DNA of 59,737 nucleotides from a virus (lineage: Duplodnaviria > Caudoviricetes), in IMG/VR virus record IMGVR_UViG_3300034147_000035, positions 1 through 59,737 of that record; one strand, 5' to 3'. Numbering within the stretch: the stretch's first letter is position 1; each line of letters opens with the position of its first letter. The notes under the pieces are model-generated. The model worked only from the letters and a program-made list of their open reading frames with translations. It searched no databases and had not been told where the DNA came from. Position numbers and translations under genes: made by a program. Shown one piece after another: positions 3,760 to 51,002 of this stretch.

Positions 3760-3849
3760 ATGGTCGCTTGACCGGCTCGTCTCGCCAGATGACTTGATGC
3801 GATCGTGTAGCTCTAGATCTGCGCTCTTCTCTCTCAAGACGAGCCGACT

Positions 3850-3896
3850 ACGGACGTAAACGCCAAGATTTGAGCAGCGACCACGGACGTAAACGC
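3850..3896. repeat. Direct repeat ACGGACGTAAACGC x2, 33-bp period
   Basis: Copies at 3850-3863 and 3883-3896. Confidence 0.85.
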
Positions 3897-4146
3897 AGAG
3901 TAGAGCTGGTGGCTTTTGCGGACTCGGCCCACCGCAAACGAGTGTACTACCTGCCTAACACACCGCCAACCCGCCAACCGCCGCTGTGTTACTTAGCTAA
4001 GGCACCACCAGGGGCACGCGCCAACCCGCCCGCGCCGCCAAAATTGCCGCCCGCCAACCCGCCACGGCAACCGCCAGGGGTTAGCGCCAATTTTGCCGCC
4101 CTATATATACGCCGCAATTTATTTTGCGCCTAACCGCATTATTTTG

Positions 4147-4175
4147 TTGCAATGGCAAAAACCCGCGCCTAATAA
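4147..4175 (+). promoter_or_regulatory. Sigma70-type promoter of island genes
   Basis: TTGCAA-N17-TAATAA with A/T tracts upstream. Confidence 0.65.
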
Positions 4176-4231
4176 GGTGCCACGGCAACGGCACTACCGC
4201 CAACCGCCGCAACACAAGGGTTTGTTTATTT

Positions 4232-4744
4232 ATGGCTACCACCAAAAAAACCGCCGCCGCCACCGCCGCCAAGGTTGCTAACATTGCCCGCGCCGCTAGC
4301 GCCATTAACCGCCACGGCCTAACCGCCGCCGCCCGCCTTAGCGCCGCTACTGGCGTTAGCGCCGCCAGCGCCAACCGCTACGCCAAGGGCGCGGTTAACG
4401 TACCCGCCACGGTTAACGCCCTTAGCGCCACGTTTGCCGCTACCACGTTTAGCCTAACCGCCTTGGGCAAGGCGGCGGTTAGCGCCAACGGTTGCATAGG
4501 CAACAAGGGTCAGCCTACTGTTATGGGCTTAACCGCTTGCGGCCTTGCTAATGCGGGCGGCACCGCCACGGGCGCACAAGTGGCCGCCGCTATACTTGGC
4601 AACCCTGCCCTAGTTACCGCCATGCTAGGCACAAAGGCGGGCGGGCACCATGTTATTGCCACCGCCGCCCTAGCCGCCCGTTGGGTACAAGGGTACGTTA
4701 ACGGGCTTTGCCGCCCGCAACATGGGCTAGCAACCCGCGCCTAA
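4232..4744 (+). CDS. Ala-rich basic protein with no Asp/Glu (170 aa), possibly DNA-binding
   Basis: Promoter upstream, AAGGG RBS, TAA stop, hairpin downstream. Confidence 0.7.
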   Translation: MATTKKTAAATAAKVANIARAASAINRHGLTAAARLSAATGVSAASANRYAKGAVNVPATVNALSATFAATTFSLTALGKAAVSANGCIGNKGQPTVMGLTACGLANAGGTATGAQVAAAILGNPALVTAMLGTKAGGHHVIATAALAARWVQGYVNGLCRPQHGLATRA

Positions 4745-4749
4745 CGGCA

Positions 4750-4776
4750 AGGGGCTAGGCTAACCGCCTAGCCCCT
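4750..4776 (+). terminator. GC-rich hairpin after island ORF1
   Basis: AGGGGCTAGGC-taacc-GCCTAGCCCCT; no U-tract. Confidence 0.45.
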
Positions 4777-4810
4777 ACTACCCGCCACTGTATTATAAAG
4801 GTAACACACC

Positions 4811-5044
4811 ATGTACGCGCCTACCACCTGCCAACCCGCCGCCATGCCGCGCCGCGCCGCCTACCTAACCGCCGCCCTTTACCACTATGCGCCCGCGCCC
4901 TATGCGCCGCGCCGCTATGGCAAGGCGGTTAGCATGGCCGCGCAACTGGCAAACTATAGCCCCAAATTGCGCGCCGCCTACCTTGCCCGCCAATGGGCGC
5001 GCATTGCCAACGGGCAAAAGCCAAACTGGCCAAAGCGCCCATAG
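4811..5044 (+). CDS. Small basic protein with no Asp/Glu (77 aa)
   Basis: AAAGGT RBS, ATG start, TAG stop, hairpin downstream. Confidence 0.6.
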   Translation: MYAPTTCQPAAMPRRAAYLTAALYHYAPAPYAPRRYGKAVSMAAQLANYSPKLRAAYLARQWARIANGQKPNWPKRP

Positions 5045-5066
5045 CCGCCCGCCAGGGCCAGCCGCC

Positions 5067-5103
5067 AAGCGGGCGCTACCCAAGTACCGGGTAGCGCCCG
5101 CTT
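5067..5103. repeat. Perfect 15-bp inverted repeat (terminator or cruciform)
   Basis: AAGCGGGCGCTACCC-N7-GGGTAGCGCCCGCTT. Confidence 0.8.
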
Positions 5104-5235
5104 TGCGCTGTAGGGTGCCCCTATGGCCGCCTAAATGCCATGCCGCCTATGGTACCGCCCTATAGGGTACCACCCGCCCCCACCCGGCGCCTCAGTGACT
5201 GCAACACAAAATTCTTCGAAAATTCTCAGATTTAC

Positions 5236-5264
5236 TTGTCAATCCTCTCATCTCATGCTACACT
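5236..5264 (+). promoter_or_regulatory. Sigma70-type promoter, probably giving a leaderless mRNA
   Basis: TTGTCA-N17-TACACT, 6 nt before ATG 5271; no SD. Confidence 0.65.
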
Positions 5265-5270
5265 CACCCC

Positions 5271-5858
5271 ATGCGAATCCTCATATCTTGTGAGTTCTCC
5301 GGCATAGTACGCGACGCCTTCATCCGCCGCTCTGAGACGAACAACCTTAACCACGAAATAATCTCCTGCGACCTCCTACCCTCAGAATCCTCATTCGGCC
5401 CACATCTCCAGACCGACGTCCTAGGACTACTCGACAACGGCTGGGACCTCATGATCGCCTTCCCACCATGCACCTACCTCGCGAGATCAGGTATCCACCG
5501 AAACCGTGACTTCCCATCCCGAGAGCAAAAGACCAGAGACGCAGCCACCTTCTTTAAGCGACTCTGGAACGCCCCCATCCCGAGAATCTGTATAGAGAAC
5601 CCACCGGGAGTCATTCACAAGCTCACAGGAGTCCCGGTGCATCAAACAGTGCATCCTTGGCAGTTCGGCGACCCAATCTCTAAAACTGTCTGCCTACGGC
5701 TCAAAGGCCTCAAGCCGCTACGTCACCGCAAGTATGTCCCGCCTCCCTACACTTCCGCCAATGATCATCCAGCTAGCTATGATCGAGCACAGAACCGCAG
5801 TCGCTTCTTCCCCGGCATCGCAGCGGCTATGGCCGAGCAATGGGGCTCGTACGACTAA
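5271..5858 (+). CDS. Phage-type DNA (cytosine-5) methyltransferase
   Basis: N-terminal ISCEFSG, SCDLLP, catalytic FPPC, ENP, WQFG and C-terminal RS.FFPGIA.AMAEQW motifs. Confidence 0.8.
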   Translation: MRILISCEFSGIVRDAFIRRSETNNLNHEIISCDLLPSESSFGPHLQTDVLGLLDNGWDLMIAFPPCTYLARSGIHRNRDFPSREQKTRDAATFFKRLWNAPIPRICIENPPGVIHKLTGVPVHQTVHPWQFGDPISKTVCLRLKGLKPLRHRKYVPPPYTSANDHPASYDRAQNRSRFFPGIAAAMAEQWGSYD

Positions 5859-5962: not shown

Positions 5963-7627
5963 TTGGCCGATCCCACTGCCGCCGCCTATGCAAGGATCAA
6001 CTCCGGAACCTCAAGGAGTCACACTCCCTACACGATCTTAGCCCCCGGCCTGAACGACATCGTCCCCAACCCATCCTACTCACAACGGTTTGATGCTTGG
6101 GCAACTCTCAGGGATTGTTACGACGGCGAGAAGGTGATCAAGGAGGCTGGTGAGCAATACCTTCCAAAATTATCTGCTCACAGCCCCGACGAGTACAAGA
6201 CGTATAAGCATCGGGCTTATTTCTACAACGCCGTCAGGCGCACACATCGCGGCCTTCACGGATCCTTATTCCGCAAGCCTGTGGAGTTCAGCATCCCGGC
6301 AGGGATGGGAGCTAAGCTGAACATCTGCAATATCACGCAGGACGGGCAGTCCTTTCAAGCGTTTATGCGGATCCTTGGGCATGAGCTGTTGCTCACAGGT
6401 CGATTCGGCATCCTGGCCGACTTCAAGGCCGATCAGGCGAATAGCCCCTACTTAGCCGGATATCTCGCGGAAAACATCTACGCTTGGCGGCTCAAGACGT
6501 TTGAGGACCGGGAAATCGTCGATCGTGTAGTACTCCTTGAGTCCGAGGTGGTTCCCACCGAGTATGGTGCTACGACACAGTTACTCATACGTGTCCTCCG
6601 GCTGGACCCATCCTCCAATGGCTCAGGCAAGATGGTCTACAGCCAGACCATCATTCGGCCGAACCCCACCGATCCTAAGAGTACGCCCACGCGTCAGAAC
6701 ATCGCGGTCAACATTCGCGGCAGGACTCTGGACTATATCCCGTTCGTGTTCTTCAATGCGATGGATCTGCGGGCAGAGTGTGGGCCACCGCCTCTCGAGG
6801 ACATCGCAAGCATAAACGTCAGCCACTTCCAGTCCACCGCTCACTTGGAGCATGGTCGCTTCTATGCGGGGATGCCCACCTATGTCACGGCGGGATCTGG
6901 AGCGAACAAGCTGCCCGGACTTCCCGAGGGGCTCACCAATACGAATCCGCTAACGGTCGGGCCATCTTTTGTTTGGGAGCTAGAGGAAAATGCTAAAGCG
7001 TGGCTGCTTGAGTTCACTGGTCACGGGCTTACCTTCCTTGAGAATGCGGTCGATTCCAAACAGTTACAGATGCAGTCCCTCGGAGGTCGACTCATCAGTT
7101 CAACCCGTCGTGCAGCCGCTATGTCCGACGAAGCGTGGCAACTCCTAGAGACTGGTGACGAAGCCACCCTGATGGATGTCGCTCAGGTATGTGACGAGGG
7201 CGTTACGAAGGCGCTTGCATATCTGGGCGACATCCTAGGGGAGATTCCTGCTGACAGTGTCCATGTCCCGAGCAAGCACAAGATCCTTGTAGAGTTCAAC
7301 AAGGAGTTTGTCCGTTCGGAACTCACCGCTCGCGAGCTAAGAGCTCTCCAGGCTCTGGCCGAGCGTGGTCATATCCCGAACGACGTTATGTACTACGCGC
7401 TTCGTGAGGTTGGCGTCATACCGATTGAGTACAGCTTGGATGACTTCACAGCTCTGCTCAAGAAGGACGAGCAGAAATGGAAGCCACCTCCGCTGCCGGG
7501 AACGCCGGGAGGGCCAGAGCTGCCGCCTACGACGAATCCTCCTAGCGGTACTACAGGAAATCCTGGTCCGGGAGTCCGACCACAGACCGCACCACGACCA
7601 GTTCTATCAGTTCCGCCGAAAGAGTAA
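5963..7627 (+). CDS. Portal protein (DUF4055-like)
   Basis: Y..Y..RA.FYN, G.LFRK, YIPFVF, PPL.DIA..N..H motifs; size and position. Confidence 0.85.
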   Translation: MADPTAAAYARINSGTSRSHTPYTILAPGLNDIVPNPSYSQRFDAWATLRDCYDGEKVIKEAGEQYLPKLSAHSPDEYKTYKHRAYFYNAVRRTHRGLHGSLFRKPVEFSIPAGMGAKLNICNITQDGQSFQAFMRILGHELLLTGRFGILADFKADQANSPYLAGYLAENIYAWRLKTFEDREIVDRVVLLESEVVPTEYGATTQLLIRVLRLDPSSNGSGKMVYSQTIIRPNPTDPKSTPTRQNIAVNIRGRTLDYIPFVFFNAMDLRAECGPPPLEDIASINVSHFQSTAHLEHGRFYAGMPTYVTAGSGANKLPGLPEGLTNTNPLTVGPSFVWELEENAKAWLLEFTGHGLTFLENAVDSKQLQMQSLGGRLISSTRRAAAMSDEAWQLLETGDEATLMDVAQVCDEGVTKALAYLGDILGEIPADSVHVPSKHKILVEFNKEFVRSELTARELRALQALAERGHIPNDVMYYALREVGVIPIEYSLDDFTALLKKDEQKWKPPPLPGTPGGPELPPTTNPPSGTTGNPGPGVRPQTAPRPVLSVPPKE

Positions 7628-10928: not shown

Positions 10929-11855
10929 ATGCCGATGACTCTGGTAGAAGCCGCCAAGCTTGAGACTCGCAATCTCGTACGCAGCGGTGTCATTGAACAA
11001 TTTGCTCGCACCTCGGAAATTCTGCGGGTTCTCCCGTTCCAGGATATCCAGGGCAACGCGCTCGCCTATAACCGCGAAGAAGTCCTTCCGGGCGTCGCCT
11101 TCCGTGGCGTCAATGAGGGATATCCGGAAAGCGTGGGTGTCATCAACCCCGCGACCGAGACCCTGTACATCGCGGGCGGTGATCTGGACGTCGATCGGTT
11201 CATCATTCAGACGATGGGAGCCGGTGTTCGTTCAACCCACGAAAATATGAAGATCAAGGCACTCGCCCAAGCATGGACTACCAAGTTCATTAAGGGCGAT
11301 ACTACGATTCAGCCACGCGAGTTCGACGGCCTCCAGGCCCGACTCACTGGCTACAACCTCATCCCGGCGGGCAGCACGTCCGGCGGCGACCCTCTCAAGC
11401 TTGAGATTCTCGACGAGGCCATTGATCGGGTGACTAACCCGACCCATATCCTCATGAGTCGCGCCCTACGTCGCAAGTTCAAAGGTGCGCGGAACAATCC
11501 AGCAGTCGCCGGCTCTATCACTCTCGACAAGGACGATTTCGGTCGGCCGGTTGACGTGTACAACGGGCTTCCACTTCTCACCACTTACGGTGATGCCGTA
11601 TCGCCCGATCCGCTCGGTTTCAATGAAGCCGGTCCTGGTGGCGGAAGCACTTCCACTTCGCTCTATGTTCTCAGCATGGGAACGGATGCAGTCTCCGGCA
11701 TCCAAAATGGCGGGATGGATGTTCGCGATCTCGGGGAGCTGGACACGATGCCTCTATGGAGGACTCGCGTCGAGTGGTACTCGGGTCTCGGCATCTTCAA
11801 CGGTGCCGCTGCCGTTCGTGTCTGGGGCATCTCCAATGCTCCGATCGTAGCTTAA
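10929..11855 (+). CDS. Major capsid protein
   Basis: TL.EAAKL, LPF..I.GNAL.YNRE..LPG.AFR.VNE, GGDLDVD, EFDGL, RTRVEWY motifs. Confidence 0.9.
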   Translation: MPMTLVEAAKLETRNLVRSGVIEQFARTSEILRVLPFQDIQGNALAYNREEVLPGVAFRGVNEGYPESVGVINPATETLYIAGGDLDVDRFIIQTMGAGVRSTHENMKIKALAQAWTTKFIKGDTTIQPREFDGLQARLTGYNLIPAGSTSGGDPLKLEILDEAIDRVTNPTHILMSRALRRKFKGARNNPAVAGSITLDKDDFGRPVDVYNGLPLLTTYGDAVSPDPLGFNEAGPGGGSTSTSLYVLSMGTDAVSGIQNGGMDVRDLGELDTMPLWRTRVEWYSGLGIFNGAAAVRVWGISNAPIVA

Positions 11856-12981: not shown

Positions 12982-13311
12982 ATGCCCACCATCCCCGGCC
13001 CTGTGGATGATGCTGGCAACATCACTGTTCCCGCTGAAGGCGGGGCGACAATCCCCATTAAGGAAATGTCTACTGATGAACCCTCTGAACAAATAGATAT
13101 CTCATCGCTGCCGCTTAACTTCTATGTCGCTGGTCGCTTTGAAATAGTTCCGGGGCCAAATCCTAATGATGTTTTCGGTCGTCTTTTGGTTATCACTGAA
13201 GCGAATGCCGACATACTTTCCACTAAAGGTCATCCGTTTCAACTCCTGGATCTTACAGATCCTGACGTCCCTATCCCTCTTTGGAGTGGGACAATTCGGA
13301 GAGGTGAATGA
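12982..13311 (+). CDS. Hypothetical protein (109 aa), possible fibre adaptor
   Basis: AAGGAG RBS; ATGA-coupled to giant fibre gene. Confidence 0.7.
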   Translation: MPTIPGPVDDAGNITVPAEGGATIPIKEMSTDEPSEQIDISSLPLNFYVAGRFEIVPGPNPNDVFGRLLVITEANADILSTKGHPFQLLDLTDPDVPIPLWSGTIRRGE

Positions 13312-16300
13312 GCGAAGTACTAGTTCTTCGCAAGCAAAGCGAAGTTACGATTATTCGCTCGGAGAAACTCACTACTAGCCATACTACAGAAGTGATCTCC
13401 GAGGTTACGTTTATTCGTACGGAGCCGGTCTCTTGCGTCTTCACCACAGTTCCTCTTACTGAGGTAGTTATTAAGAACTACCCTGTTTCTGAAGTCGTCA
13501 TCATAAGAGGAAGCTTAGGCGGCGGAGTCACGAACGGGGATAAGGGTGATGTCATTGTCACCAACGCTGGTTCTCCTGAGGAGAATTGGGAGGTTCCTGA
13601 ATTAGATTTTAAGGCCGACAAGACATATGTCGATTCAGAGCTCGCGGAAAAAGCAGACATCACCTATGTTGATGCAAGTCTAGCGGTCAAGGCCGACAAG
13701 ACATATGTCGATTCAGAGCTCTCGGAAAAGGCAGACATCACCTACGTTGATGCTGGCCTAGCCACGAAGGTAGATACTGACGACGCTAATGCAGCGCTCG
13801 CACTCAAAGCCGATATCACCTATGTTGATGCTGAGAATGCTGAGCAGGATGCTGCTATCGCTCTCAAAGCTGATCAAGTCTACGTTGATGATGAGCTGGC
13901 TCTCAAGGCTAATCTCGTTGGGGATGACTTCACTGGCCCAGTCACTGTTCCGGATGAACCCTACGGCTCATCTTGGAATGATTCAACTCAGGTCCCAACC
14001 AAGAACGCCGTTTATGATCAACTTGAATCGTTGAAACTCGGTGGGTCTTCTGTTGATACTTTTGATTTTGACTTTAGCACTAATACGGAGGAGCCTCCGA
14101 ATTCTAAGCAAATTCGTCTTGATGTCACAAATGCGAGTGACGCCACTAAGATTTGGGTCTATCACCTGACTAACAATAATTTTGATCCGGCATTGATGCT
14201 AGCCTCAATTAAAGTTGGCAGTGATATTCTTTTACAGGATCAGGCTGACAGCTCTATCAACCATCGTTATAATGTCATTGATTCAGTAGAAAATAAGGGA
14301 ACTTATTCCGAGATTCCGGTAGAGTGGCTGGAAGGAAGTAATTCATTTGTCAATAATCGCGACACTCTCCTAGCGATTATTCGTATTGCTGAACCGGCGA
14401 TGCCCCTTACTGGAGGGGAATTCACTGGCGATATCGCTGTCCCTGATGATCCCTACGGTCCAACGTGGGATGGAAACACCGACGTCCCAACTAAGAATGC
14501 TCTCTATGATAAGATTGAAACCCTTGGAACTGGGCAAGGAACTGGTGTCACCGATGGTGATAAAGGCGACGTTGTCGTAAGTGGCGAAGGTGAAGTCTGG
14601 GAAGTCCCTGAGCTGGACAATAAGGCTGACACCACTTATGTTGATGCAGGTCTCGCTACGAAAGCTGATTATGATGATACTGTTTCGGCATTAGCGACTA
14701 AAGCGAGTATCTCGTATGTAGATATCGGTCTTGCCACGAAGGCTGATGAAGCTCAGGTAGAAGCAGATCTAGCTGAAAAAGCAGATATCACCTATGTTGA
14801 TGCAAGTCTAGCGGTTAAGGCTGATAAGAATTATGTAGATTCTGAACTAGCCGAAAAAGCCGACCTCACCTATGTTGATGCTAGTTTAGCTTCTAAAGCT
14901 GATATTGCTTATGTTGATGCTGGTTTGGCGACGAAGGCTGATCAGGAAGATTTAGACGCTAAGGCTGATGCAGCAGATCTTGATAATTATATGCCGAAGA
15001 CCGGTGGTCAATTCACTGGTGATATTTACGTTCCCGATGAAGCCTATGGCCCTGCTTGGAATGAGAATTTTGACGTCCCGACTAAGAATGCTCTTTACGA
15101 CAAGATTGAAACCATTGAATCTGGTGTTGGTGGTATTGTCGGTATCACTGATGGTGATAAGGGTGATGTTGTTGTTTCCGGAAATGGAGAAGTCTGGGAG
15201 GTTCCTGAGCTAGATACAAAAGCCAATGTCGAGGATCTAGATGCTAAAGCTGATAAATCATATGTGGCGACGCAATTAGCTGAAAAGGCTGATCTTGCTT
15301 ATGTTGACTCGGAGCTAGCTGAGAAAGCTGACACCACTTATGTAGATACTGAACTCGCCGGAAAAGCTGATATCACATATGTTGACTCGGAGCTAGCTGA
15401 GAAAGCGGATATCACATATGTTGACTCAGAGCTAGCTGAGAAAGCTTCTACTGCGGACTTGACACTTAAGGCAGACATTACTTATGTAGATACTGAACTA
15501 GCTGAGAAAGCTGACATCATCTATGTTGATTCAGAGCTAGCTGAGAAAGCTGACACCACTTATGTAGATACCGAACTCGCCGGAAAGGCCGATCTAGCAG
15601 CTCTAGATGAAAAGGCTGATCTTGCTTATGTTGATGCTAGTTTGGCATCTAAGGCAGATGTCTCCTATGTTGATGCGGAATTAGCAACAAAAGCTGACCT
15701 AGATGATCTTGCCGATTATGCTGCTACTGGCGATGTTAATGCAGCTCTTGCTCTCAAAGCCGACACTATCTATGTTGATACTGAGCTGACTAAGAAAGCT
15801 GATCTTATTTATACGAACGAGCAGCTAGCCCAGAAAGCTAACACGGCTTATGTCGATTCAAAGTTAGTGCTCAAGGCAGATATATCGTATGTTGAATCTG
15901 AACTAGCGACAAAAGCTGAGACAGCAGACGTCAATGCGGCTTTGGATCTCAAGGCTGATGAAGCGACTGTTAATGCCGAGTTGGCTGGTAAAGCCAATAC
16001 GAGTGATGTTAATGCTGCTCTCGCACTAAAAGCAGATGTAGATGATCTTGACGATAAAGCCAATATCACCGGAGATGACTTCCTCGGTCCTGTCACTGTT
16101 CCTGATGAACCTTATGGCCCGAGCTGGGACGATTCTACTCAGATACCGACCAAGGGTGCTCTCTATGATAAACTCCAAGCGATTGAAGCTGGGAGTCATA
16201 TCCCTGATGGTGACAAGGGTGATGTCGTCGTATCGGATGGCGGCACAGTCTGGCTAGTTCCTGATCTCGCACTCAAGGCAGATGCTGCTCAGGTTCAGGC

Positions 16301-19300
16301 TGCGTTGGATCTCAAGGCTGATGAGGCAGACCTTGCTCTTAAAGCCGATATCACTTATGTTGACGTTGGACTTTCAGCTAAGGCAGATCAAACTTATGTA
16401 GATAATGAGCTAGTACTCAAAGCAGATCAGATCTATGTTGATGATCAGCTAGCTGATAAAGCTAACATCACTGATGTGCAAACTGCTCTCGCAGGGAAAG
16501 CAGATGCTACTGATCTCAGTGCAGGATTAAACCTCAAAGCTAACCTCGCTGGAGGCAATGTCTTCACAGGTATCCAGCAGTTTCAAGATCAGGCAGCAGT
16601 CCCGTATGAAATTTTCGGACCGACTTGGGATGGTGTGAATACCCTACCGACTAAAGCTGCTCTTTATACTAAATTCCTTTCTGTAGAACAAGCTATTCTC
16701 GGAGCACTTGTTTATCAAACGGTATGGGATGCTTCTACCAATACTCCGCCAATCCCAGATGCCGAGCCAGAGAATAAAGGCTGGTATTATAAAGTCAGTG
16801 TCGCTGGCTCTACCGATATAGATGGTATCACCGATTGGCAAGTTGGTGATTGGATTGTTAGTAACGGTGCGACTTGGGACAAGATTGATAACGCGGAAAC
16901 TGTTTCTAGTGTTAATGGTAAGATTGGTGCAGTTGTCATTTCCAAGGATGACGTTGGCTTAGGGAATGCTGATAATACTTCTGATTCTGCGAAACCAATT
17001 AGTGTTGATACTCAGGCGGCGCTGGATCTTAAAGCCCCGCTTGTTCACACTCATGTTATTGCTGATACTGTAGGGTTACAGACTTCTCTTGATGCAAAGG
17101 CTCCAGTTTCTCACACCCATGGAATAAGTCAAGTCGTAGGCTTGCAGACAGAACTAGACGGTAAGGCTCCGCTAGTTCACACTCACGTTATTGCCGATAC
17201 TACAGGACTTCAAGCTGCGTTGGACGGTAAGGCTTTACTTGTTCACACCCATAATATGTCTGACGTCATTGGTCTTGAGGATCAGCTCGCAGACATTCGC
17301 GCGGATATGGGTGGGTATCAACCCGCAGGATCTTATGCCCCACTAGTTCATACTCATGCTCTTGCAGATGTGAATGGTCTTGAGGATGAGCTTGATAATA
17401 AAGCTCCGCTGGTTCACACTCACGTTATCGCTGATACCACAGGACTTCAAATTGCTCTAGATGGTAAGCAGCCACTAGGTTCTTATGCTCCGCTAGTTCA
17501 CACTCATGTTATTTCAGATGTGTCTGGCTTAGATGATATACTTAACAATAAGGCTCCATTAGTTCACGTCCACCCAATTAGTGACATCACTAATCTGCAG
17601 ACTACCCTTGATGGAAAACAGCCTGTTGGAAATTATTCGCTAGTCGGGCACGTTCACCCCATCACAGAAATTACTGGACTTCAGGCTGCGCTTGATAGTA
17701 AGCAACCCGCAGGATCCTATGCGCCTCTGGTTCATACTCATGTGATTGCCGATGTAACGAATTTACAAACTTCGTTGGATTCAAAGCTGGACGATAGTCA
17801 GGCTGGGACATTTGGCTTGGCTCTTCTCGGGTCGGCTAATATGGCAGCAGCGAAGACCACTTTGTCATATACCAAGGCGGATATTGGTTTAATCAATGTA
17901 GATAATACGAGTGATCTTAATAAGCCTGTTTCAATTGCGACTCAGCTTGAATTGGATGGCAAGGCTAGTGTAACTCACTCTCATGTCGCGGACGATGTGG
18001 AAGGTCTGGTAGATGCTCTCATTGCAAAGCTGGATGATAGCCAGCTAGGTCAACCATATGGAGTTGCTTCTCTTGGTCCAGATGGAAAGGTACCAACGGA
18101 ACAGCTTCCGGCTCCGTCAGTAGCAGGAGTCACTAGCTTTAATTCTCGTATAGGTGCCGTATCTCTTCTCAGTGGAGATGTGATTACTGCGCTAGCTTAT
18201 ACTCCAGCGAGTGATGCACTCTTTAACAACACAGTCAAAGGTCTTACTCCTCCCAGTGGTGGCGGAACTACTGCATTCCTTCGTGCTGATGGAAACTGGG
18301 CTGTCCCTCCAGGTGGAACTGGCGGCGGCGGCGATGCTATCTGGGGTTCTATCACTGGTACTCTTACCGATCAAGCGGATCTTGTTAATGCCTTGAATGC
18401 CAAGCTAGATCTCACTGGCGGAACTTTGACTGGTGACCTCACCATCAGTAAAGCTCTGCCGAATATCATTATTAATCCGACTTCAGGGAATGCTTTCTTC
18501 AATCTTCGTGCGACCAATGGTGGTAATGATGGATTGAATCTTGTGGCTTCTGCGGCATCAGGAGTCTTCTTCCGATCAGATAGTACCACGTTCTCCAACA
18601 GGGCGAATAGCACACAGTATATGACTCTGGGTGCGGCTGGTTTGAATGTGGTCACTGGCAATCTTTCAGTCGCTGGGGTAAATGTCTCACTCGTCGGTCA
18701 TACTCATGTGATCGCAGATGTGACCGGTCTCCAGACTGCACTTGACGGGAAGCAGGCTGCGGGGAGTTATGCTCCTCTGGTTCATACTCACATAATTGCA
18801 GATGTGACCGGTCTCCAAAGCGGACTGAATTCCAAAGCTAATCTCGCTGGAGGTAATACCTTCACAGGCGACCAGACTGTTCGTACGTCTGACCCAGCCA
18901 TTAATCTATGGGGCGATGGCTTCACTACTAACCTTAATTTCCGCAACACTTATTCCAGTGTCGATTATCTTGTCGGCACCATCACCAGCTATCTCGGAAC
19001 AGGCTTGCAGGTGAACGGTTATTCGACCGTTCAGTTTCGGGCGAACAACGAGATTATTTCAATCATCAGTCCGGCCGGAATGCAAATGCAACCGGGCAAG
19101 ACTTTACTTGTCAATGACGAAGCCTATGGTGCGAGTTGGGATGGTAGCCTTGATGTCCCAGCAAAGAATGCGGTTTATGACAAGATTGAATTGATATCTA
19201 CCGCTCTTGCTGGTAAAGCATCACTAGTCCACACTCACGTGATTGCAGATGTCACAGGACTCCAGACTGCTTTGGATGGGAAGCAAGCAGCGGGAAGTTA

Positions 19301-44811: not shown

Positions 44812-45166
44812 AGTCTTTGTCCTGCAAGCCACCCGCTTCCAGGCCGACGTCAGCGCGGCGGGCGTGTATGGCGAGATCTGCTTTGTCCTCTCAGCAGGTG
44901 ATCGCACTTGCGCGAATCCCGAGCTGTCTTTTGAGAAACTGCGTCGTGCGCTCAAAGACTTCCGGCCTAACGAAGACTTCATAGTCTGGGCTGGAGGGGA
45001 TCCTCTATCAGCGATCATCACTGGAATGGTGCTCATTGATCTAGGCATAAACAAGTTTCGGTTTTTGCGTTTTGAGAAAAATCGTAATATAAGGCATGGG
45101 CAACCTGTTACCGGGTTCTATTCTCCTGTTGAAGTTTGTTTAGAAAAGGAAGCAGATTATGGCTGA
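44801..45166 (+). CDS. Hypothetical protein
   Basis: Overlaps helicase stop; GGDP motif. Confidence 0.7.
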   Translation: MTNKVFVLQATRFQADVSAAGVYGEICFVLSAGDRTCANPELSFEKLRRALKDFRPNEDFIVWAGGDPLSAIITGMVLIDLGINKFRFLRFEKNRNIRHGQPVTGFYSPVEVCLEKEADYG

Positions 45167-45707
45167 CGACGACGTAGACTTCTTTGAACAGGAAGACACT
45201 TCTCAGGGTGCCGACAAATTCAAAGGTGCGATCACTAACCTAGCCCGCGAGGTTAGGAACATTGACAACACCATTGAAGATCTCCAAACCCAGATGAAGG
45301 AGCTCGGTCGCCGCAAGATTGATATTGAGACCAAGCAGCTCCCGGAGCTGTTGCATCAGGCTGGTGTCAAAGAAATCACAACGCTGGAAGGGCTGAAGGT
45401 CAGCGTTAAGTTTGTTGTCGGTTCTATCCCGGCGGAGTCCAAGGAATCTGCCTACGAATGGCTGGACGACAATGGTCACGCCGATATCATCAAGCGGAAC
45501 CTTGCTCTTCAATTCCAGAAGGGTGATACTTCTCAAGCCGAACAGGCTGCGGCGGCGCTTCGCGAAATGGGATTCAGCCCCACTATCAAGTTAGACATTC
45601 ACCCTCAGACCTTTATGGCGTTTGCGCGCGAGCAGATTCAAAACGGCAAGATACTCCCTCTTGCTCAATGGGGTGTCTACTTCGGAGATCGGGCGGTAAT
45701 AAAGTAG
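45159..45707 (+). CDS. Conserved replication-region phage protein
   Basis: Coiled coil, WL..NGH.DIIK and HPQT..AF.RE motifs. Confidence 0.75.
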   Translation: MADDDVDFFEQEDTSQGADKFKGAITNLAREVRNIDNTIEDLQTQMKELGRRKIDIETKQLPELLHQAGVKEITTLEGLKVSVKFVVGSIPAESKESAYEWLDDNGHADIIKRNLALQFQKGDTSQAEQAAAALREMGFSPTIKLDIHPQTFMAFAREQIQNGKILPLAQWGVYFGDRAVIK

Positions 45708-45724
45708 TCCGAGCAAAATATCAC

Positions 45725-45752
45725 TTGCGTTGTGAGCAAACTAGCTTATAGT
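45725..45752 (+). promoter_or_regulatory. Sigma70-type promoter
   Basis: GAGCAA upstream; TTGCGT-N16-TATAGT. Confidence 0.55.
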
Positions 45753-45792
45753 GATATGTCTGGTGGTAAACCAGTTGATAGAGGAGAGTCTA

Positions 45793-47319: not shown

Positions 47320-47341
47320 TACACCTTCCGTGGGTGGGACT

Positions 47342-47375
47342 GGGAGGCGGGTGTCTTTGGCACTCGCCTCTCTTT
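47342..47375 (+). terminator. Rho-independent terminator
   Basis: GGGAGGCGGGTGTC-TTT-GGCACTCGCCTCTC then TTT. Confidence 0.6.
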
Positions 47376-47390
47376 CGTTGGAGACTCGCT

Positions 47391-48278
47391 GTGAACCAAG
47401 AGAATTTTGAGACTTTCGTATTCTACCTTAATGAACGCGAGAAAATTCGCCAGATGCGCGAGGAAGGATCTCCAGGTCCCTGGACACTTGACCCAATCTT
47501 AGGTCGCTACAAGTTCACAAACATACGACGTTCCGATGATCGCACTACCCGCTGGCTGAAGAAGAATTGGTACGATCCTAACCGCGATGCTGATCTGGAA
47601 ATGCTCGTTATTAACTGCGCTCTCGCCAGATACTTTGGCAGCATTGAATTCTGTTCTGCTGTCGGTTTTCAGCAGAGTTGGAATCCCGAGTTTCTTTTGC
47701 AGACAGCGAATGATAGACTCAGCCGGGGTGAGAAGGTATTCACTGGAGCCTACATTATTACGAATGCTGGAAGCACCGACCCCAAGCAAAATGTCGTAGT
47801 TTGTCAGTTCCTCACACCACTTAGGTTTCGCGCCGCCCGCGTGGTAGAGCTCTGTCAGCGTAATCGCTGGCAAGATGTCGCAGAGTTTCTTCAGCAGCAG
47901 CCGGGGATCGGCCCGTTCATGTCCAAGGAGATTGCGCTGGATATGATGTTGACTCCTCTCCTGGAAAATGCAACCGATAAGCTAACATGGAGTCCCGCAG
48001 GTCCTGGGGCGATTCGTGGCTTGAACCGTCTGCATGATCGCCCGTTGCAAGCGCCTTTGTCTCAACCGAAGGCTGTAGCTGAGATGATAGACCTTCTCGG
48101 GCTGCTCAGCACAGGAGGTCACCTCCGACCATACATGCCGACTCCAGGCGTTGATTACGGCGTTACAGATGTTCAGTTCAGCCTTTGTGAACTAGACAAA
48201 TATCTCCGAGTCAAGAATGGTGAAGGACGTCCACGCTCTGGTTACGATTGGCGAAAGGCAAAACCGTACACGGTCTGA
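47391..48278 (+). CDS. aGPT-Pplase clade 1 / 5-hmdU DNA kinase helical-domain-like protein
   Basis: ERE.IR..R..G..PWT.DPIL..YKFTNIRR.DDRTT, GPGA.RGL and LCE.DKY.R motifs. Confidence 0.8.
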   Translation: MNQENFETFVFYLNEREKIRQMREEGSPGPWTLDPILGRYKFTNIRRSDDRTTRWLKKNWYDPNRDADLEMLVINCALARYFGSIEFCSAVGFQQSWNPEFLLQTANDRLSRGEKVFTGAYIITNAGSTDPKQNVVVCQFLTPLRFRAARVVELCQRNRWQDVAEFLQQQPGIGPFMSKEIALDMMLTPLLENATDKLTWSPAGPGAIRGLNRLHDRPLQAPLSQPKAVAEMIDLLGLLSTGGHLRPYMPTPGVDYGVTDVQFSLCELDKYLRVKNGEGRPRSGYDWRKAKPYTV

Positions 48279-48549: not shown

Positions 48550-49362
48550 ATGCAAATATTCATTCCTACTCGTGACAGGGTAAATGCTCAATTTACATGG
48601 GACAATCTCACTCCTAGGCTGCAAGCGGCTACCCGCTTAGTGGTACCGGCGGATGAGGTCTCGAGCCATCTCGAGCGTTCTCGAAACGTGGTAGCCCGCC
48701 CCGCTGGCCCCCTTAGCGGGGTACGCCAATGGATAGTCGATGAGCTTGCTACGCCGGGTCAGCCCGTGATTATGCTTGACGATGATCTAGCATTCTTTGT
48801 TAGGAAAGACCCTCGAGCCCATAATCTCCGTCCGGCGGGAGCCGACGTTGAACGAATTATGGACTGGCTAGATGAGATGGTTCAGCCGAATTTCTCCAAC
48901 ATGAGTTATGTCCACGCTGGACTCTCACCACGACAAGGAAATAACTGGTGCTACCCCGACAAGCATCAGACTATCCAGCGAATGAACGCTGTTCATTGCG
49001 TGAACCCTGAAGCACTCCGTCACTATGGTATTCGCTATGATGCCGTTGACATGATGGAAGACTACCACGTTGTCCTCAGTCTCTTTGAAGTTGGGGAGAA
49101 GAACATTGTTCTTACGGACGCGGCTTGGGATCAGTGTAAGGGGAGTGGCGCTCCCGGAGGTTTTACTCATTACCGTACAAAAGAGACTCAGGCCGCCGCG
49201 TCGCATCGCCTCGCGGAACTACATCCTCTTTCGGTTAAGGTTGTTGAGAAGGAGCCAAAGACGGGAAGTGGTGGGTTCGCTGGTAAAAGAACTGATGTCC
49301 GTGTCCAGTGGAAGCAAGCCTACCAGAGAGGCACGCGGAATCCCACCTACAATATGAGGTGA
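48550..49362 (+). CDS. GT-A fold DNA glycosyltransferase (TAGT/GREB1/JGT-like)
   Basis: IFIPTR.R, RQWI, MLDDDL (DxD), EDYH and GG...R motifs. Confidence 0.7.
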   Translation: MQIFIPTRDRVNAQFTWDNLTPRLQAATRLVVPADEVSSHLERSRNVVARPAGPLSGVRQWIVDELATPGQPVIMLDDDLAFFVRKDPRAHNLRPAGADVERIMDWLDEMVQPNFSNMSYVHAGLSPRQGNNWCYPDKHQTIQRMNAVHCVNPEALRHYGIRYDAVDMMEDYHVVLSLFEVGEKNIVLTDAAWDQCKGSGAPGGFTHYRTKETQAAASHRLAELHPLSVKVVEKEPKTGSGGFAGKRTDVRVQWKQAYQRGTRNPTYNMR

Positions 49363-49365
49363 TTC

Positions 49366-50439
49366 ATGTACGAATTCGACATTGATTGCCCGAATGAGGG
49401 ACTCGGCCGTGTGATGCGAGTGCTGAGAGAAAATGGCATCACGACTACCAGTAGGAACGGCCCGGTCATTCGCTTCCCTGAGCCAGTAGCTCTTCAATAC
49501 TCAAACCCTCGGCGCCGAATCCTGGACAATCCTATTCGGGACGCTAATCCTTTCTTTCATATGTTTGAGACTCTGTGGATGCTGGCAGGTTTGAATACTG
49601 TCGCACCACTAGAGCTCTATAATTCTGGGATGAAGCAGTACTCCGATGATGGAGTGACATTCGCAGCACCTTACGGATATCGTTGGCGAAAGCGATGGGG
49701 CGACCAGATTCTCAAGGTTGTAGAGAAACTGAAGAAGAATCCTGAAGATCGTCGCATTGTCTTACAGATGTGGGATCCCAAGGAATTATTCAAGGATGAA
49801 GGTCTAGATTTCGCTTGTAATCAACAGGTCTTGTTTGATACACGACCTACGACGATTCATCCCAGTGGCTACTACCTTGACATGACAGTCACCAACCGTA
49901 GCAATGATCTTATCTATGGTGCGATGGGTAGCAATCTCTACCATTTCTCTTTCCTGCATGAATTTATCGCGCTTCATACAGGGCTAGGACTTGGGACCTA
50001 CTATCAGATCTCCAAGAATATGCACTTGTATCTTGAGAATCCCGCTTCCAAGCACTGCTGGGAACATATGCTGGAGATTGAAAAGGGGCCGAAATCTCCA
50101 GAGGAAGATCTTAGTCTGAGCGAGTTCGGAATCCCTCTTGAAATAGAACCGTATAGGAATTTCGTCAACTACAACAAGATCACAGATGATGTCCTTGCTG
50201 ACCCAAGTTGGCTGACTACGGTTGCGAAACCGATATGTGAAGCGTATCGAGTCTATAAGTATAAGATGCTTACTGGTCTTGATATTGAGTTTGAGCTGAG
50301 GATTGAGTTTGCTTTAGCGGCTCTAGAACATTGCAGATCTGATGCTCTAGGACTAAATTGCGAAGCATGGTTTCAGCGAAGACTTGAGAATTATAGCCGG
50401 AATAAGATTACCATAGTAGAAGCGGAGAGACCAGATTGA
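49366..50439 (+). CDS. Thymidylate-synthase-family protein, probable dUMP hydroxymethylase
   Basis: SRNG, NPFFH..E, YGYRWR, RRIVLQMWD, catalytic Cys (FACN), RSNDLIYGAMGSN (dUMP-type Asn) and H.Y motifs. Confidence 0.85.
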   Translation: MYEFDIDCPNEGLGRVMRVLRENGITTTSRNGPVIRFPEPVALQYSNPRRRILDNPIRDANPFFHMFETLWMLAGLNTVAPLELYNSGMKQYSDDGVTFAAPYGYRWRKRWGDQILKVVEKLKKNPEDRRIVLQMWDPKELFKDEGLDFACNQQVLFDTRPTTIHPSGYYLDMTVTNRSNDLIYGAMGSNLYHFSFLHEFIALHTGLGLGTYYQISKNMHLYLENPASKHCWEHMLEIEKGPKSPEEDLSLSEFGIPLEIEPYRNFVNYNKITDDVLADPSWLTTVAKPICEAYRVYKYKMLTGLDIEFELRIEFALAALEHCRSDALGLNCEAWFQRRLENYSRNKITIVEAERPD

Positions 50440-51002
50440 GCTACATTGAAGCATGGCGAAATGGACAGGTTGTTCGCAAGCACACGATGGAGAACATCCG
50501 TGCGGAGAATGATGCTGAGCATACATGGGGTCTGACCATGCTCCTCATCTGTGCTTGGCCTAATGTCCCAGAGCATATTATCAAGATGGCTATTATCCAC
50601 GACTGTGGAGAGCGAGCCACTGGTGATATGCCGGGGCCGACTAAGTGGGCCAATCCCGTCCTTGGGGATGAGATGGATAGGCTTGAGAAGCAGCATATCA
50701 TGGACACGCTGCCTGAGCATTTATGCGATGACTATAAGACGACCACTGAAAGTGAATGGGCAGTCATTGAATTCTTTGATCGCGCTGAATTCTGTATCAG
50801 CATGGCGCGTGAACGACGCCTCGGAAACACCTATGCCATGATCTACATGGAACGCTCATACAATAAAATGACGCAGACGTTTGATAATCATAAGGTTGCC
50901 TTTACGAAAATGGACACTGAGCTGCTCATGGGTATGATGGATCTTCGTGCAGAGATTCGTACCGAGATGGATAAGCTCGAGCGGGGAGATTTCAAGTGGT
51001 GA
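50436..51002 (+). CDS. HD-domain nucleotide phosphohydrolase
   Basis: AEH.W, HD..E...GD.P.P.K and D motifs (YfbR-like). Confidence 0.85.
   Translation: MSYIEAWRNGQVVRKHTMENIRAENDAEHTWGLTMLLICAWPNVPEHIIKMAIIHDCGERATGDMPGPTKWANPVLGDEMDRLEKQHIMDTLPEHLCDDYKTTTESEWAVIEFFDRAEFCISMARERRLGNTYAMIYMERSYNKMTQTFDNHKVAFTKMDTELLMGMMDLRAEIRTEMDKLERGDFKW

What the first reader, a model, noticed from the sequence alone, without database searches (positions are those of the whole stretch)
3941..5192. 1.25-kb island with essentially no 5'-TC-3' on either strand: candidate modification-free zone
Seen: between GA at 3940-41 and TC at 5192-93 there is no GA and one TC (4510-11). A rough random expectation is over 100 combined. 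Both flanks are TC/GA-rich and the edges are sharp. GA is the reverse complement of TC, so this is one double-stranded constraint, and it covers coding and non-coding DNA alike. Established: hmU phages hypermodify T post-replicatively, and, as I recall, in dinucleotide-specific contexts; glucosyl-hmU (base J) impedes transcription in kinetoplastids. Inference: this phage modifies T (or C) in TC, and the island stays unmodified so host RNA polymerase, terminase or origin proteins can use it, for example as the first-read segment after injection. Alternatives: avoidance of DarT (TNTC), of GATC/GANTC-type restriction sites, or of a phage-encoded TC-specific nuclease.
Basis: partly seen in the sequence, partly recalled or inferred. 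Interest (0 to 1): 0.93.

Follow-up and report, generated by a model that had tools for sequence, protein, structure and literature searches.

The report
Phage gene cassette without TC/GA
An uncultured sediment phage that carries thymine-modification genes keeps one small two-gene unit, control signals included, free of the DNA step TC/GA, which strips its proteins of all aspartate and glutamate; most likely this stretch thereby escapes a chemical mark or enzyme that reads that step.

Summary
Observation confirmed. Window 3941-5192 holds 0 GA and 1 TC, where about 141 are expected from its own base composition; the next-longest TC/GA gap in the 59.7-kb window is 49 bp. It is not an assembly artefact: contigs of four other runs carry it letter for letter.

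It is a conserved unit: leader, ORF-A (170 aa), hairpin, ORF-B (77 aa), terminator, and a conserved 3' element. It lies just upstream of the portal operon. Seven loci from about five diverged lineages keep 1.0-1.45 kb with 0-2 TC/GA, despite 33-41% divergence, although a third of all point mutations would create the step. All 43 ORF-B relatives lack Asp and Glu. Both ORFs are under purifying selection.

All four long contigs encode a 5-hmdU DNA kinase. The neighbouring methyltransferase is missing in one complete genome, and no DpdA is present.

Best reading (about 0.5): escape from a TC-context thymidine hypermodification. This is unmeasured, and 0 of 8 cultured kinase phages show such an island.

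This scan had already noted the same kind of cassette on other DNA, including likely relatives.

The parts
3845..3896 (+). Two 19-nt direct repeats, 33 nt apart start to start, just outside the island. Each relative also has tandem repeats upstream of its island, but with different sequences. Role unknown (possible operator).
   Evidence: family D12 in the window, D2 in L003, D5 in L090; for L108.
3935..3945 (.). Left boundary element CAAACGAGTGT. It contains the last GA. G001 and G002 carry the reverse-complement-like form AAACACTC(A/G)GTTTG at their left edge.
   Evidence: read directly from the sequences.
3941..5192 (.). The TC/GA-free island as a whole: 0 GA and 1 TC in 1252 bp.
3941..4231 (+). 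5' non-coding part of the island (291 bp). It holds putative GA-free sigma-70-like promoters: TTAGCG-N17-TATATA at 4081-4109 and TTGCAA-N17-TAATAA at 4147-4175. The second aligns with TTGCCA in G001 and G002. These are inferred sites; the consensus scan did not call them.
   Evidence: (no call inside the island).
4232..4744 (+). ORF-A, 170 aa, with no Asp or Glu. Its ribosome-binding site is AAGGG at 4216-4220. The protein is predicted to fold (pLDDT 81, pTM 0.77) and matches no known fold or family.
4750..4776 (+). Intercistronic GC-rich hairpin without a U tract. Every lineage has one, each with a different stem sequence (-25 to -33 kcal/mol).
4811..5044 (+). ORF-B, 77 aa, basic, with no Asp or Glu. 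Its ribosome-binding site is AAAGG at 4797-4801. The family has 43 clusters, all acid-free. The C-terminal helices are modelled with confidence; the N-terminal half is not.
5069..5109 (+). Strong hairpin (5069-5101) followed by TTTGCGCT: the likely intrinsic terminator of the unit. It is present in 5 of the 6 distinct sequences examined (not in L116); L115 repeats the window's.
   Evidence: (I5).
5110..5191 (.). Conserved 3' non-coding element, still free of TC/GA. It holds CTATGGTACC at 5147-5156 and a C-rich tail. Role unknown.
5190..5198 (.). Right boundary motif CCTCAGTGA (CCTCAGTC in two loci). It is conserved in all 7 loci and holds the first TC and GA after the island.
5236..5264 (+). 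Sigma-70-like promoter TTGTCA-N17-TACACT with a TG extension, rich in TC/GA. It ends 7 nt before the ATG of the next gene. TTGTCA is found in 5 of the 7 loci (not in L108 or L116), and the second hexamer was traced in the window, G001 and G002.
5271..5858 (+). Small DNA-methyltransferase-like protein (phrog_757). It belongs to the neighbourhood, not to the island's cause: it is absent from the complete genome G002.
5963..7627 (+). Portal protein, the first gene of the structural array.
47334..48278 (+). 5-hmdU DNA kinase (PF18723, 133 bits against a cut-off of 25). It is the candidate reader of the TC step.
48550..49362 (+). TAGT-type DNA glycosyltransferase (PF20691; phrog_842).
49366..50439 (+). 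Thymidylate-synthase-family enzyme, far below the thymidylate synthase equivalog cut-offs (69 against 327 bits). It is a candidate pyrimidine hydroxymethylase.
50436..51002 (+). HD-domain 5'-deoxynucleotidase-like protein. Together with the dUTPase at 53421-54035, it is a candidate for nucleotide-pool editing.

Best explanation
The island is a self-contained transcription unit that selection keeps free of 5'-TC-3' on both strands. It comprises a leader with GA-free promoter candidates, two small protein genes (three in some strains), an intercistronic hairpin, a terminator and a conserved 3' element. It belongs to a clade of uncultured siphoviruses that encode a thymidine-hypermodification pathway.

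The most likely mechanism has four steps:
1. The phage replaces T by 5-hmdU (inferred from the gene set).
2. After replication, a sequence-selective enzyme, most plausibly the 5-hmdU DNA kinase with the glycosyltransferase acting after or beside it, converts the T of TC steps into a bulky base (inferred; context not measured).
3. A stretch without any TC therefore stays free of the bulky mark, while the rest of the genome carries one site every 6-7 bp.
4. Host RNA polymerase and DNA-binding proteins can then use this one unit whatever the state of the rest. That state could be the moment after injection of fully modified virion DNA, or late in infection when the DNA is being marked.

What the two acid-free proteins do is unknown.

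Shown here: the ban on TC/GA, its maintenance by selection, its extent over a whole expression unit, its cost to the proteins, and its co-occurrence with the kinase.

For: 1. Size and sharpness: 1 site where about 141-185 are expected, and no second island in the window, G001 or G002 (next gaps 49-54 bp).

2. Selection rather than chance or ancestry: 7 loci keep 1030-1452 bp with 0-2 sites (window; L115; L003 = G001; L116; L090 = G002, with fragments G003 and G004; L117; L108). Islands differ at 33-41% of aligned positions (417-512 differences), and 33% of all possible point mutations would create TC or GA. Synonymous divergence is 0.56-1.9.

3. The constraint acts at DNA level, not codon level:
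- Non-coding DNA is purged too: 100-290 bp before ORF-A and about 85 bp after the terminator.
- Ribosome-binding sites are AAGG-type without GA.
- Codon junctions are clean.
- Island ORFs use none of the TCN, NTC, NGA or GAN codons. Portal, capsid and polymerase together use 197 Asp+Glu in 1557 codons and prefer TTC, ATC and CTC.

4. The genes are real. dN/dS is 0.17-0.67. ORF-A folds with pLDDT 81 and pTM 0.77. There are 43 ORF-B clusters and 15 ORF-A representatives.

5. The proteins were recoded. The three distant ORF-A relatives that still have Asp/Glu (P0051, P0054, P0058) carry them at columns where the 15 acid-free members have mostly Gly or Ala. One conserved Asp column is Gly in 15 of 15.

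6. The slot, not one gene, is protected. A near-identical strain (L115) carries an extra 201-bp insert with a third small ORF, also free of TC/GA. L108 carries an extra 32-aa ORF.

7. Link to T modification. The kinase is present in all 4 long contigs: the window, G001, G002 and the L108 contig. The glycosyltransferase and the TS-like gene align between the window, G001 and G002.

8. Literature:
- In M6, ViI and phiW-14 the restriction-resistant sites point to TG/TC and to the kinase (PMC6449724, passages).
- A phage T-dioxygenase prefers NTC (PMC13229309, section 8).
Against: - No modification has been measured for this phage or any relative. The TC context is inferred only from the island itself, which makes the argument circular.
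- 0 of 8 cultured phages with the kinase have a TC/GA-free island or any other kb-scale dinucleotide-free unit. These are PAE1, PaMx11, MW2, RHph_I65 and Ab18, plus LuckyBarnes, PhiJL001 and phiRSL1, which also carry the glycosyltransferase. Kinase-type hypermodification therefore does not in general need one.
- The published context for M6, ViI and phiW-14 is TG as well as TC, yet TG/CA is not depleted here.
- No aGPT-Pplase or amino-acid:DNA transferase was found among the 30 window proteins scanned against Pfam.
- If T is fully replaced by 5-hmdU before replication, the island is still not ordinary DNA.
- The island runs about 85 bp past the likely terminator. In the window it also starts about 200 bp before the better promoter candidate, so it is not exactly the transcribed stretch.
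- Early expression is not shown.
Confidence: 0.5

Rival explanations
1. The island avoids a TC-directed enzyme other than the phage's own base-modification machinery. Candidates are a nuclease that cuts at TC, a TC-preferring cytosine deaminase, or a DNA ADP-ribosyltransferase. Such an enzyme could be a host defence or a phage weapon against host DNA. The rest of the genome would be protected by its modification, and the cassette by having no target.
For: The data show only that something reads TC on both strands of the DNA; they do not say what. TC-preferring enzymes exist (recalled, not checked here): T4 endonuclease IV, DddA and APOBEC-type deaminases, and DarT at TNTC. The absence of islands in 8 cultured kinase phages fits a reader that is specific to this clade or its hosts.
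Against: - It does not say why this one unit should not simply be protected like the rest of the genome. That still requires the modification to be unwanted here.
- No nuclease or deaminase candidate turned up among the 30 window proteins scanned against Pfam and the 25 scanned against PHROGs (overlapping sets), although many ORFs remain unnamed.
- A host defence would vary between hosts, yet the ban is identical in about five lineages.
Confidence: 0.2
2. The constraint acts on RNA. The messenger of the cassette must lack UC and GA to escape a ribonuclease, of phage or host, that destroys other transcripts.
For: The island roughly matches a transcription unit.
Against: - Two unrelated steps (UC and GA) would have to be banned on one strand, whereas one double-stranded step explains both.
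- The purge also covers DNA before the promoter candidates and about 85 bp after the terminator hairpin.
- Genes next to the island show no one-strand depletion; TC and GA both resume at once at 5192-5198.
Confidence: 0.07
3. The step is read as GA by a guanine modification (DpdA-type 7-deazaguanine, as in phage iggy), or as TC by the small cytosine-methyltransferase-like gene next to the island.
For: Phage iggy's DpdA has a strict GA motif (PMC10484667, abstract in the search listing and passages). The methyltransferase-like gene sits 80 bp after the island in the window and in G001.
Against: No TGT/DpdA-family match was found in the window, G001 or the complete genome G002 (0 of 3), while the same search rang in 14 of 14 control genomes. 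The methyltransferase is absent from G002, G003 and G004, which keep the island. Among the 80 other phage loci with that methyltransferase (L003-L082), only the relative L003 has an island.
Confidence: 0.04
4. The island is not a selected feature. It would be an assembly artefact, a foreign insert with odd composition, or the scar of TC-to-TT hypermutation.
For: The island is GC-richer than its flanks (63.6% against about 55% in the adjacent 500-bp windows), and AA, TT and TA are in excess.
Against: - Identical sequence occurs in contigs of four other runs.
- Homologous islands sit at the same place in collinear genomes of 68-72% identity.
- Hypermutation would lower GC, not raise it, and would not leave two ORFs under purifying selection.
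- The C- and A-rich third positions are what a junction-safe code gives.
Confidence: 0.01

Closest known systems
Context-specific thymidine hypermodification from 5-hmdU (Pseudomonas phages M6 and PaMx11, Salmonella ViI, Delftia phiW-14, Bacillus SP10; PMC8989533, PMC6449724)
   Same: The gene set is similar: a thymidylate-synthase-family enzyme, nucleotide-pool enzymes and a 5-hmdU DNA kinase. Only some T are modified in those phages, and the context is inferred to be a dinucleotide beginning with T (TG/TC).
   Different: - No modification has been measured here.
- The implied context is TC only.
- A TAGT-type glycosyltransferase stands where those phages have an amino-acid or polyamine transferase.
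- None of the 8 cultured kinase phages that I scanned has a site-free gene cassette. M6, ViI, phiW-14 and SP10 themselves were not scanned; PAE1 stands in for the M6 group.
Recognition-site avoidance in DNA that must act before protection is in place (T7 early region with ocr, T5 first-step-transfer DNA; recalled, not checked here)
   Same: It is a local stretch of phage DNA whose sequence has been shaped so that a sequence-specific DNA reader finds no target, and it carries genes presumed to act first.
   Different: The avoided word is a dinucleotide, so the purge rewrites promoters, ribosome-binding sites and proteins (no Asp or Glu). A position at the injected end is not shown.
Phage T-dioxygenase 5mYOX97 with NTC preference (PMC13229309, section 8)
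   Same: It shows that a phage enzyme can mark T specifically in TC after replication.
   Different: No Tet/JBP-family match was found in the window, G001 or G002. That search had no positive control, so absence is not shown. The pathway here looks pre-replicative (thymidylate-synthase-like) plus kinase.
Base J (glucosyl-5-hmU) of kinetoplastids as a transcription barrier (recalled)
   Same: A glycosylated 5-hmU hinders RNA polymerase, which would give a reason to keep a transcription unit free of it. A glycosyltransferase of the TET-associated family is present here.
   Different: It is a eukaryotic system with a different polymerase and a different way of placing the mark. No evidence here shows that the phage base is glycosylated or blocks bacterial RNA polymerase.

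Membership tests
Thymidine-hypermodifying phages (5-hmdU pathway) | 5-hmdU DNA kinase (5-HMUDK) | tested here: met
   PF18723 at 133 bits against a cut-off of 25, at window 47334-48278. Homologues of 68-71% identity occur in G001, G002 and the L108 contig.
Thymidine-hypermodifying phages (5-hmdU pathway) | Pre-replicative supply of 5-hmdUTP: dUMP hydroxymethylase plus exclusion of dTTP | tested here: inconclusive
   A thymidylate-synthase-family protein is present but scores far below the thymidylate synthase equivalog cut-offs (69 against 327 bits). An HD 5'-deoxynucleotidase-like protein and a dUTPase are also present. Substrate (dUMP or dCMP) cannot be told from sequence here.
Thymidine-hypermodifying phages (5-hmdU pathway) | Transferase that replaces the phosphate (aGPT-Pplase or amino-acid:DNA transferase) | tested here: not met
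   No such Pfam family was found among the 30 window proteins scanned. A TAGT glycosyltransferase (PF20691) is present instead. Unnamed ORFs remain.
Thymidine-hypermodifying phages (5-hmdU pathway) | Hypermodified thymidine in virion DNA, in a defined sequence context | not testable with these tools
   This needs LC-MS and native long-read sequencing. Only contigs of public runs were available.
DpdA / 7-deazaguanine DNA modification at GA | tRNA-guanine-transglycosylase-family DpdA gene | tested here: not met
   PF01702 matched 0 of 3 genomes (window, G001, complete G002). The control rang in 14 of 14 genomes.
Cytosine-methyltransferase-driven modification at TC | The methyltransferase co-occurs with the island | tested here: not met
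   The phrog_757 protein is absent from G002, G003 and G004, which have the island. Of 80 loci with this methyltransferase, 79 lack an island.
First-entering, site-free early DNA (T7 / T5 type) | Location at the genome end that enters the cell first | not testable with these tools
   The window is a linear fragment (82% complete). G002 is a circular assembly with a 127-bp overlap. Physical ends are unknown. In G001 the large terminase gene lies about 25 kb from the island.
First-entering, site-free early DNA (T7 / T5 type) | Local absence of the target word in a genome that is otherwise rich in it | tested here: met
XRE-type helix-turn-helix regulator (my first impression of ORF-A) | Match to an HTH family or fold | tested here: not met
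   No Pfam or PHROG family matched, even at E = 10. No Foldseek match at E <= 0.001 in PDB or BFVD for the pLDDT-81 model.

The most novel reading that the evidence does not exclude
Phages with bulky, context-specific DNA marks may carry a 'clean' bootstrap cassette. By sequence design it would be the only stretch of the injected chromosome that unmodified host machinery can read. Its acid-free proteins, ORF-A (a fold with no match in PDB or BFVD) and ORF-B (basic, with C-terminal helices), would then license transcription or replication of the marked DNA. The banned dinucleotide would directly reveal the specificity of the modifying enzyme from sequence alone. Since this scan has noted such cassettes with unrelated genes in many other phages, this would be a general and so far undescribed principle: epigenetic insulation written into the primary sequence.
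Probability: 0.3. Interest if true: 0.9.

Novelty: new variant of a known kind. Interest (0 to 1): 0.8.

Why it matters
If the reading holds, three things follow.

- The target context of an uncharacterised DNA-modifying pathway could be read off a genome from the word its protected cassette avoids.
- It would show that a DNA-level constraint can override protein chemistry. Two conserved, folded proteins are made without any acidic residue, a natural experiment in reduced amino-acid alphabets.
- It points to a timing or licensing step in the infection cycle of hypermodified phages that nobody has looked for.

Four full-text searches found no paper describing a motif-free gene cassette in a modified phage. 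The supplements of the papers I read were not open to me, so I cannot exclude a mention there.

The value of this particular window is incremental. This scan had already noted the phenomenon on other DNA, including likely relatives. This window adds:
- two further lineages and a strain with an extra gene in the slot;
- the exclusion of the methyltransferase and of DpdA;
- independent read support;
- a negative survey of 8 cultured kinase phages.

Tried and rejected
**Readings tested and rejected**
- Neighbouring methyltransferase as the cause: rejected.
- DpdA guanine modification at GA: rejected.
- Tet/JBP dioxygenase: no match, but the control was silent, so no conclusion.
- Assembly artefact: rejected.
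- TC-to-TT hypermutation: rejected on GC content and dN/dS.
- A normal, acid-containing twin of ORF-A or ORF-B in the same genome (a lead from note e1-6207981): none at E <= 1 in the window, G001 or G002.
- ORF-A as an XRE-type HTH protein: no family or fold support.

**Searches that found nothing**
- ORF-B fold: no match.
- Protein atlas search with P0058: nothing usable.
- Homologues of P0058: ten hypothetical proteins, no function.
- A portal search with the window's protein alone. It worked with a three-sequence alignment.
- A kinase-alignment scan of viral contigs reached only close relatives.
- P0058 in viral contigs.
- ORF-B family in 185,579 species genomes, so there is no host or prophage clue.
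- ORF-A and ORF-B in GenBank phages by tblastn. The low-complexity filter was on.

**Other results**
- Other dinucleotide gaps among the methyltransferase loci (AA/TT in L024 and L025, AT in L040) were not followed up.
- A 1351-bp TA-free stretch in PhiJL001 lies inside the tape-measure gene. I take it as compositional, not an analogue.
- No RNA holder was listed among the sequencing runs.
- Contig depths over the island, relative to the flanks, were higher in X8, slightly higher in X10, and in X9 and X12 lower than the left flank but close to the right. Each depth is one figure per contig, so no conclusion follows.
- The promoter scan called nothing inside the island. My promoter candidates there are read by eye.

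I therefore could not fetch the DNA of 40 of the 43 ORF-B clusters or of the acid-containing ORF-A relatives.
- The pdb_via_wide library was not on the machine.
- Supplements of papers were not opened.
Full report
**1.
Reading the window and listing every TC and GA gives GA at 3940, TC at 4510 and TC at 5192, with nothing between. The two gaps are 570 and 682 bp. The next-longest gap in the 59,737-bp window is 49 bp, among 8,498 sites.

From the island's own base composition, 76.7 TC and 64.8 GA are expected. One TC and no GA are seen. From the density in the flanks, about 185 sites are expected. No other dinucleotide is missing; CA and TG are at 0.90 and 1.06 of expectation.

The window is a whole IMG/VR record, linear, rated 82% complete. 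The stretch stands letter for letter in contigs of four public runs that are not marked as a possible source. One 1,490-bp contig crosses both edges. It is therefore not an assembly artefact.

**2. What the genome is.**
- The portal gene is at 5963-7627. The capsid gene lies near 10929-11855 (weak nucleotide matches to capsid genes of Caulobacter and other phages).
- A tape-measure protein of 1,862 aa and a 3,832-aa fibre-like protein were found; no phage RNA polymerase was. The phage is a siphovirus.
- A DNA-metabolism block follows: SNF2 helicase, 5-hmdU DNA kinase, TAGT-type glycosyltransferase, a thymidylate-synthase-family enzyme, an HD 5'-deoxynucleotidase-like protein, family-A DNA polymerase, dUTPase, a 5'-3' exonuclease and a helicase.
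- The gene after the island (5271-5858) matches a phage DNA-methyltransferase family (phrog_757).

**3. Relatives keep the island.**
I scanned the 80 viral loci that hold a homologue of that methyltransferase, testing all ten strand-symmetric dinucleotide classes. Exactly one other locus came out: L003, a 73.5-kb contig (G001), with 1,102 bp free of TC/GA at the same place.

Searches with the two island proteins and with a portal alignment added further loci:
- G002, a 91.9-kb contig with a 127-bp end overlap, so a circular and probably complete assembly.
- Two fragments of the same type, G003 and G004.
- L108, a 50.5-kb contig.
- Three metagenome pieces, L115-L117.

Every one has an island of 1,030-1,452 bp with 0-2 sites. 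G001 and G002 are collinear with the window at 64-75% nucleotide identity (68-72% over the longer aligned blocks). Each has a single island, and its next gap is 54 bp. Seven more distant portal relatives (L107, L109-L114) show none in the flanks that could be fetched.

**4. Anatomy.**
The three-way alignment and the seven loci share one plan.
- The left edge falls in a short conserved element (window 3935-3945). Tandem repeats that differ between lineages lie just outside it.
- A non-coding leader of 100-290 bp follows. Its -35-like hexamers are TTGCAA or TTGCCA. The canonical TTGACA contains GA and cannot occur here.
- The ribosome-binding sites are of AAGG type, without GA.
- ORF-A comes next, then a strong GC hairpin whose stem differs in every lineage and which has no U tract.
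- ORF-B follows, then a strong hairpin with a TTTGC tail in 5 of the 6 distinct sequences.
- About 85 bp of conserved non-coding DNA come next, including CTATGGTACC.
- The right edge lies at the conserved CCTCAGTGA.
- Directly after it comes a TC-rich stretch with TTCGAAAAT repeats and a sigma-70-like promoter, TTGTCA-N17-TACACT. The scan tool called this promoter at 5236-5264, 7 nt before the next start codon.
- The scan called no promoter inside the island, so my candidates there are inferences.

**5. The genes are real, and they pay for the ban.**
- ORF-A and ORF-B are under purifying selection, with pairwise dN/dS of 0.17-0.67 and dS of 0.56-1.9. Synonymous sites are themselves constrained, so dN/dS is if anything overestimated.
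- ORF-A is predicted to fold (pLDDT 81, pTM 0.77, from an alignment of 18 sequences). It matches nothing in PDB or BFVD by Foldseek and no Pfam or PHROG family.
- ORF-B is confident only in its C-terminal helices and also has no match.
- A search of 5.8 billion proteins found 43 ORF-B clusters, down to 34% identity. Their 3,353 residues include no Asp and no Glu.
- An exhaustive profile search found 15 ORF-A representatives. Twelve are acid-free and three distant ones are not. At the columns where those three have Asp or Glu, the 15 acid-free members of the alignment (the 12 representatives plus the window, G001 and G002) have mostly Gly or Ala. One conserved Asp is Gly in 15 of 15.
- In the window's own portal, capsid and polymerase genes, 197 of 1,557 codons are Asp or Glu, and TTC, ATC, CTC, GTC and TCN are favoured. 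The island ORFs use none of these.

**6. Selection, not history.**
A third of all possible point mutations in any of the islands would create a TC or GA. The islands differ from one another at 417-512 aligned positions. Neutral drift would have produced well over a hundred sites, and 0-2 are seen.

The window's single TC is a synonymous third-position change that a 99%-identical strain does not have. That same strain carries a 201-bp insert between ORF-A and ORF-B with a third small ORF, again free of TC/GA. L108 carries an extra 32-aa ORF. What is protected is therefore the slot, whatever sits in it.

**7. Who reads TC?**
- The methyltransferase next door is excluded. The complete genome G002 and the fragments G003 and G004 lack it but keep the island.
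- A DpdA-type guanine modification at GA, as in phage iggy (PMC10484667, listing and passages), is excluded as far as a family search can. There were 0 of 3 genomes with a match, while the control rang in 14 of 14.
- The 5-hmdU DNA kinase is present in all four long contigs.
- The literature that I read in passages or sections supports a dinucleotide context for T marks. [quoted passage not shown] Restriction-resistant sites of M6, ViI and phiW-14 point to TG/TC and to the kinase (PMC6449724). A phage T-dioxygenase prefers NTC (PMC13229309, section 8).

This makes a TC-context thymidine mark the most economical reader. The cassette would then be a stretch that stays unmarked.

**8. What speaks against it.**
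- Nothing has been measured.
- I fetched eight cultured phages that carry the kinase: PAE1, PaMx11, MW2, RHph_I65 and Ab18, plus LuckyBarnes, PhiJL001 and phiRSL1, which also carry the glycosyltransferase. None has a TC/GA-free island or any comparable unit for another dinucleotide. The only long gap, TA in PhiJL001, lies inside a tape-measure gene.
- The island is therefore a property of this clade, not of the pathway as such. TG is not avoided here although it is part of the published context.
- No transferase of the known kind was found.
- The island is somewhat larger than the likely transcript.

For these reasons I keep a TC-directed nuclease or deaminase (0.2) and an RNA-level reading (0.07) as rivals, and put the main reading at 0.5. 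Early expression after injection is attractive but untested; no RNA run holding the stretch was listed.

**9. Relation to earlier notes of this scan.**
After forming my reading I consulted the scan's notes. They report the same kind of cassette in more than ten other genomes. These include two that share words with ORF-B or match the island lengths of G001 and G002 (e1-5901741, e1-6037504), and one first-stage note on this same stretch (e1-6359218). They are unchecked AI notes and not independent evidence. I used three leads from them and tested each here:
- A normal twin gene: none found.
- A guanine-modification reader: no DpdA.
- One-strand depletion next to the cassette: not seen.

**10. 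Verdict.**
The feature is a selection-maintained, TC/GA-free expression unit of a clade of uncultured phages with thymidine-modification genes. I rate it a new variant of known kinds (context-specific DNA modification and local target avoidance), of high interest. The mechanism is still inferred.

Noticed in passing
window 13308-24806: A single 3,832-aa ORF with many repeated fibre or Ig-like domains (17 PHROG families matched). The matching region is only about 4.6 kb in relative G001, so this is a highly variable giant fibre or decoration protein.
   Followed up: partly
window 5236-5271: The conserved promoter after the island ends 7 nt before the ATG of the methyltransferase-like gene. This suggests a leaderless or nearly leaderless messenger. 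G001 shows the same spacing.
   Followed up: no
window 5199-5235, and the same place in L003, L090, L108, L115, L117: Directly after the island lies an AT-rich stretch with repeated TTCGAAAAT-like words. It is the most TC/GA-dense DNA of the region and could be a binding array that needs the mark.
   Followed up: no
L115 1196-1463: A strain 99% identical to the window carries a 201-bp insert between ORF-A and ORF-B. The insert has its own AAGG ribosome-binding site and a small acid-free ORF (about 57 aa by my reading of the insert printed; not translated by a tool).
   Followed up: partly
L108 7623-7720: An extra 32-aa hydrophobic ORF sits inside the island of the L108 lineage. It may be a membrane peptide.
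   Followed up: no
window 45159-46659: Two genes of the Pam3 gp33-like and gp34-like families (PF23984, PF23977) stand just before the kinase. Their function is unknown, and they may belong to the modification module.
   Followed up: no
PhiJL001 (AY576273.1) 51408-52759; phiRSL1 157806-158598: These are long TA-free stretches (1,351 and 792 bp) in two cultured kinase-plus-glycosyltransferase phages. The PhiJL001 stretch lies inside the tape-measure gene, so it is probably compositional. The phiRSL1 stretch was not looked at.
   Followed up: partly
window 3880-3970 and 5196-5370 in runs X8-X12: Contigs of four runs break near both island edges. In run X8 the island contig has about three times the word depth of its flanks. 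This may reflect several strains sharing the island, but contig depth cannot settle it.
   Followed up: no
L024 1029-1556 / L025 7701-8228; L040 4496-4821: Unrelated phage loci found through the methyltransferase show a 527-bp stretch without AA/TT, and a 325-bp stretch without AT.
   Followed up: no
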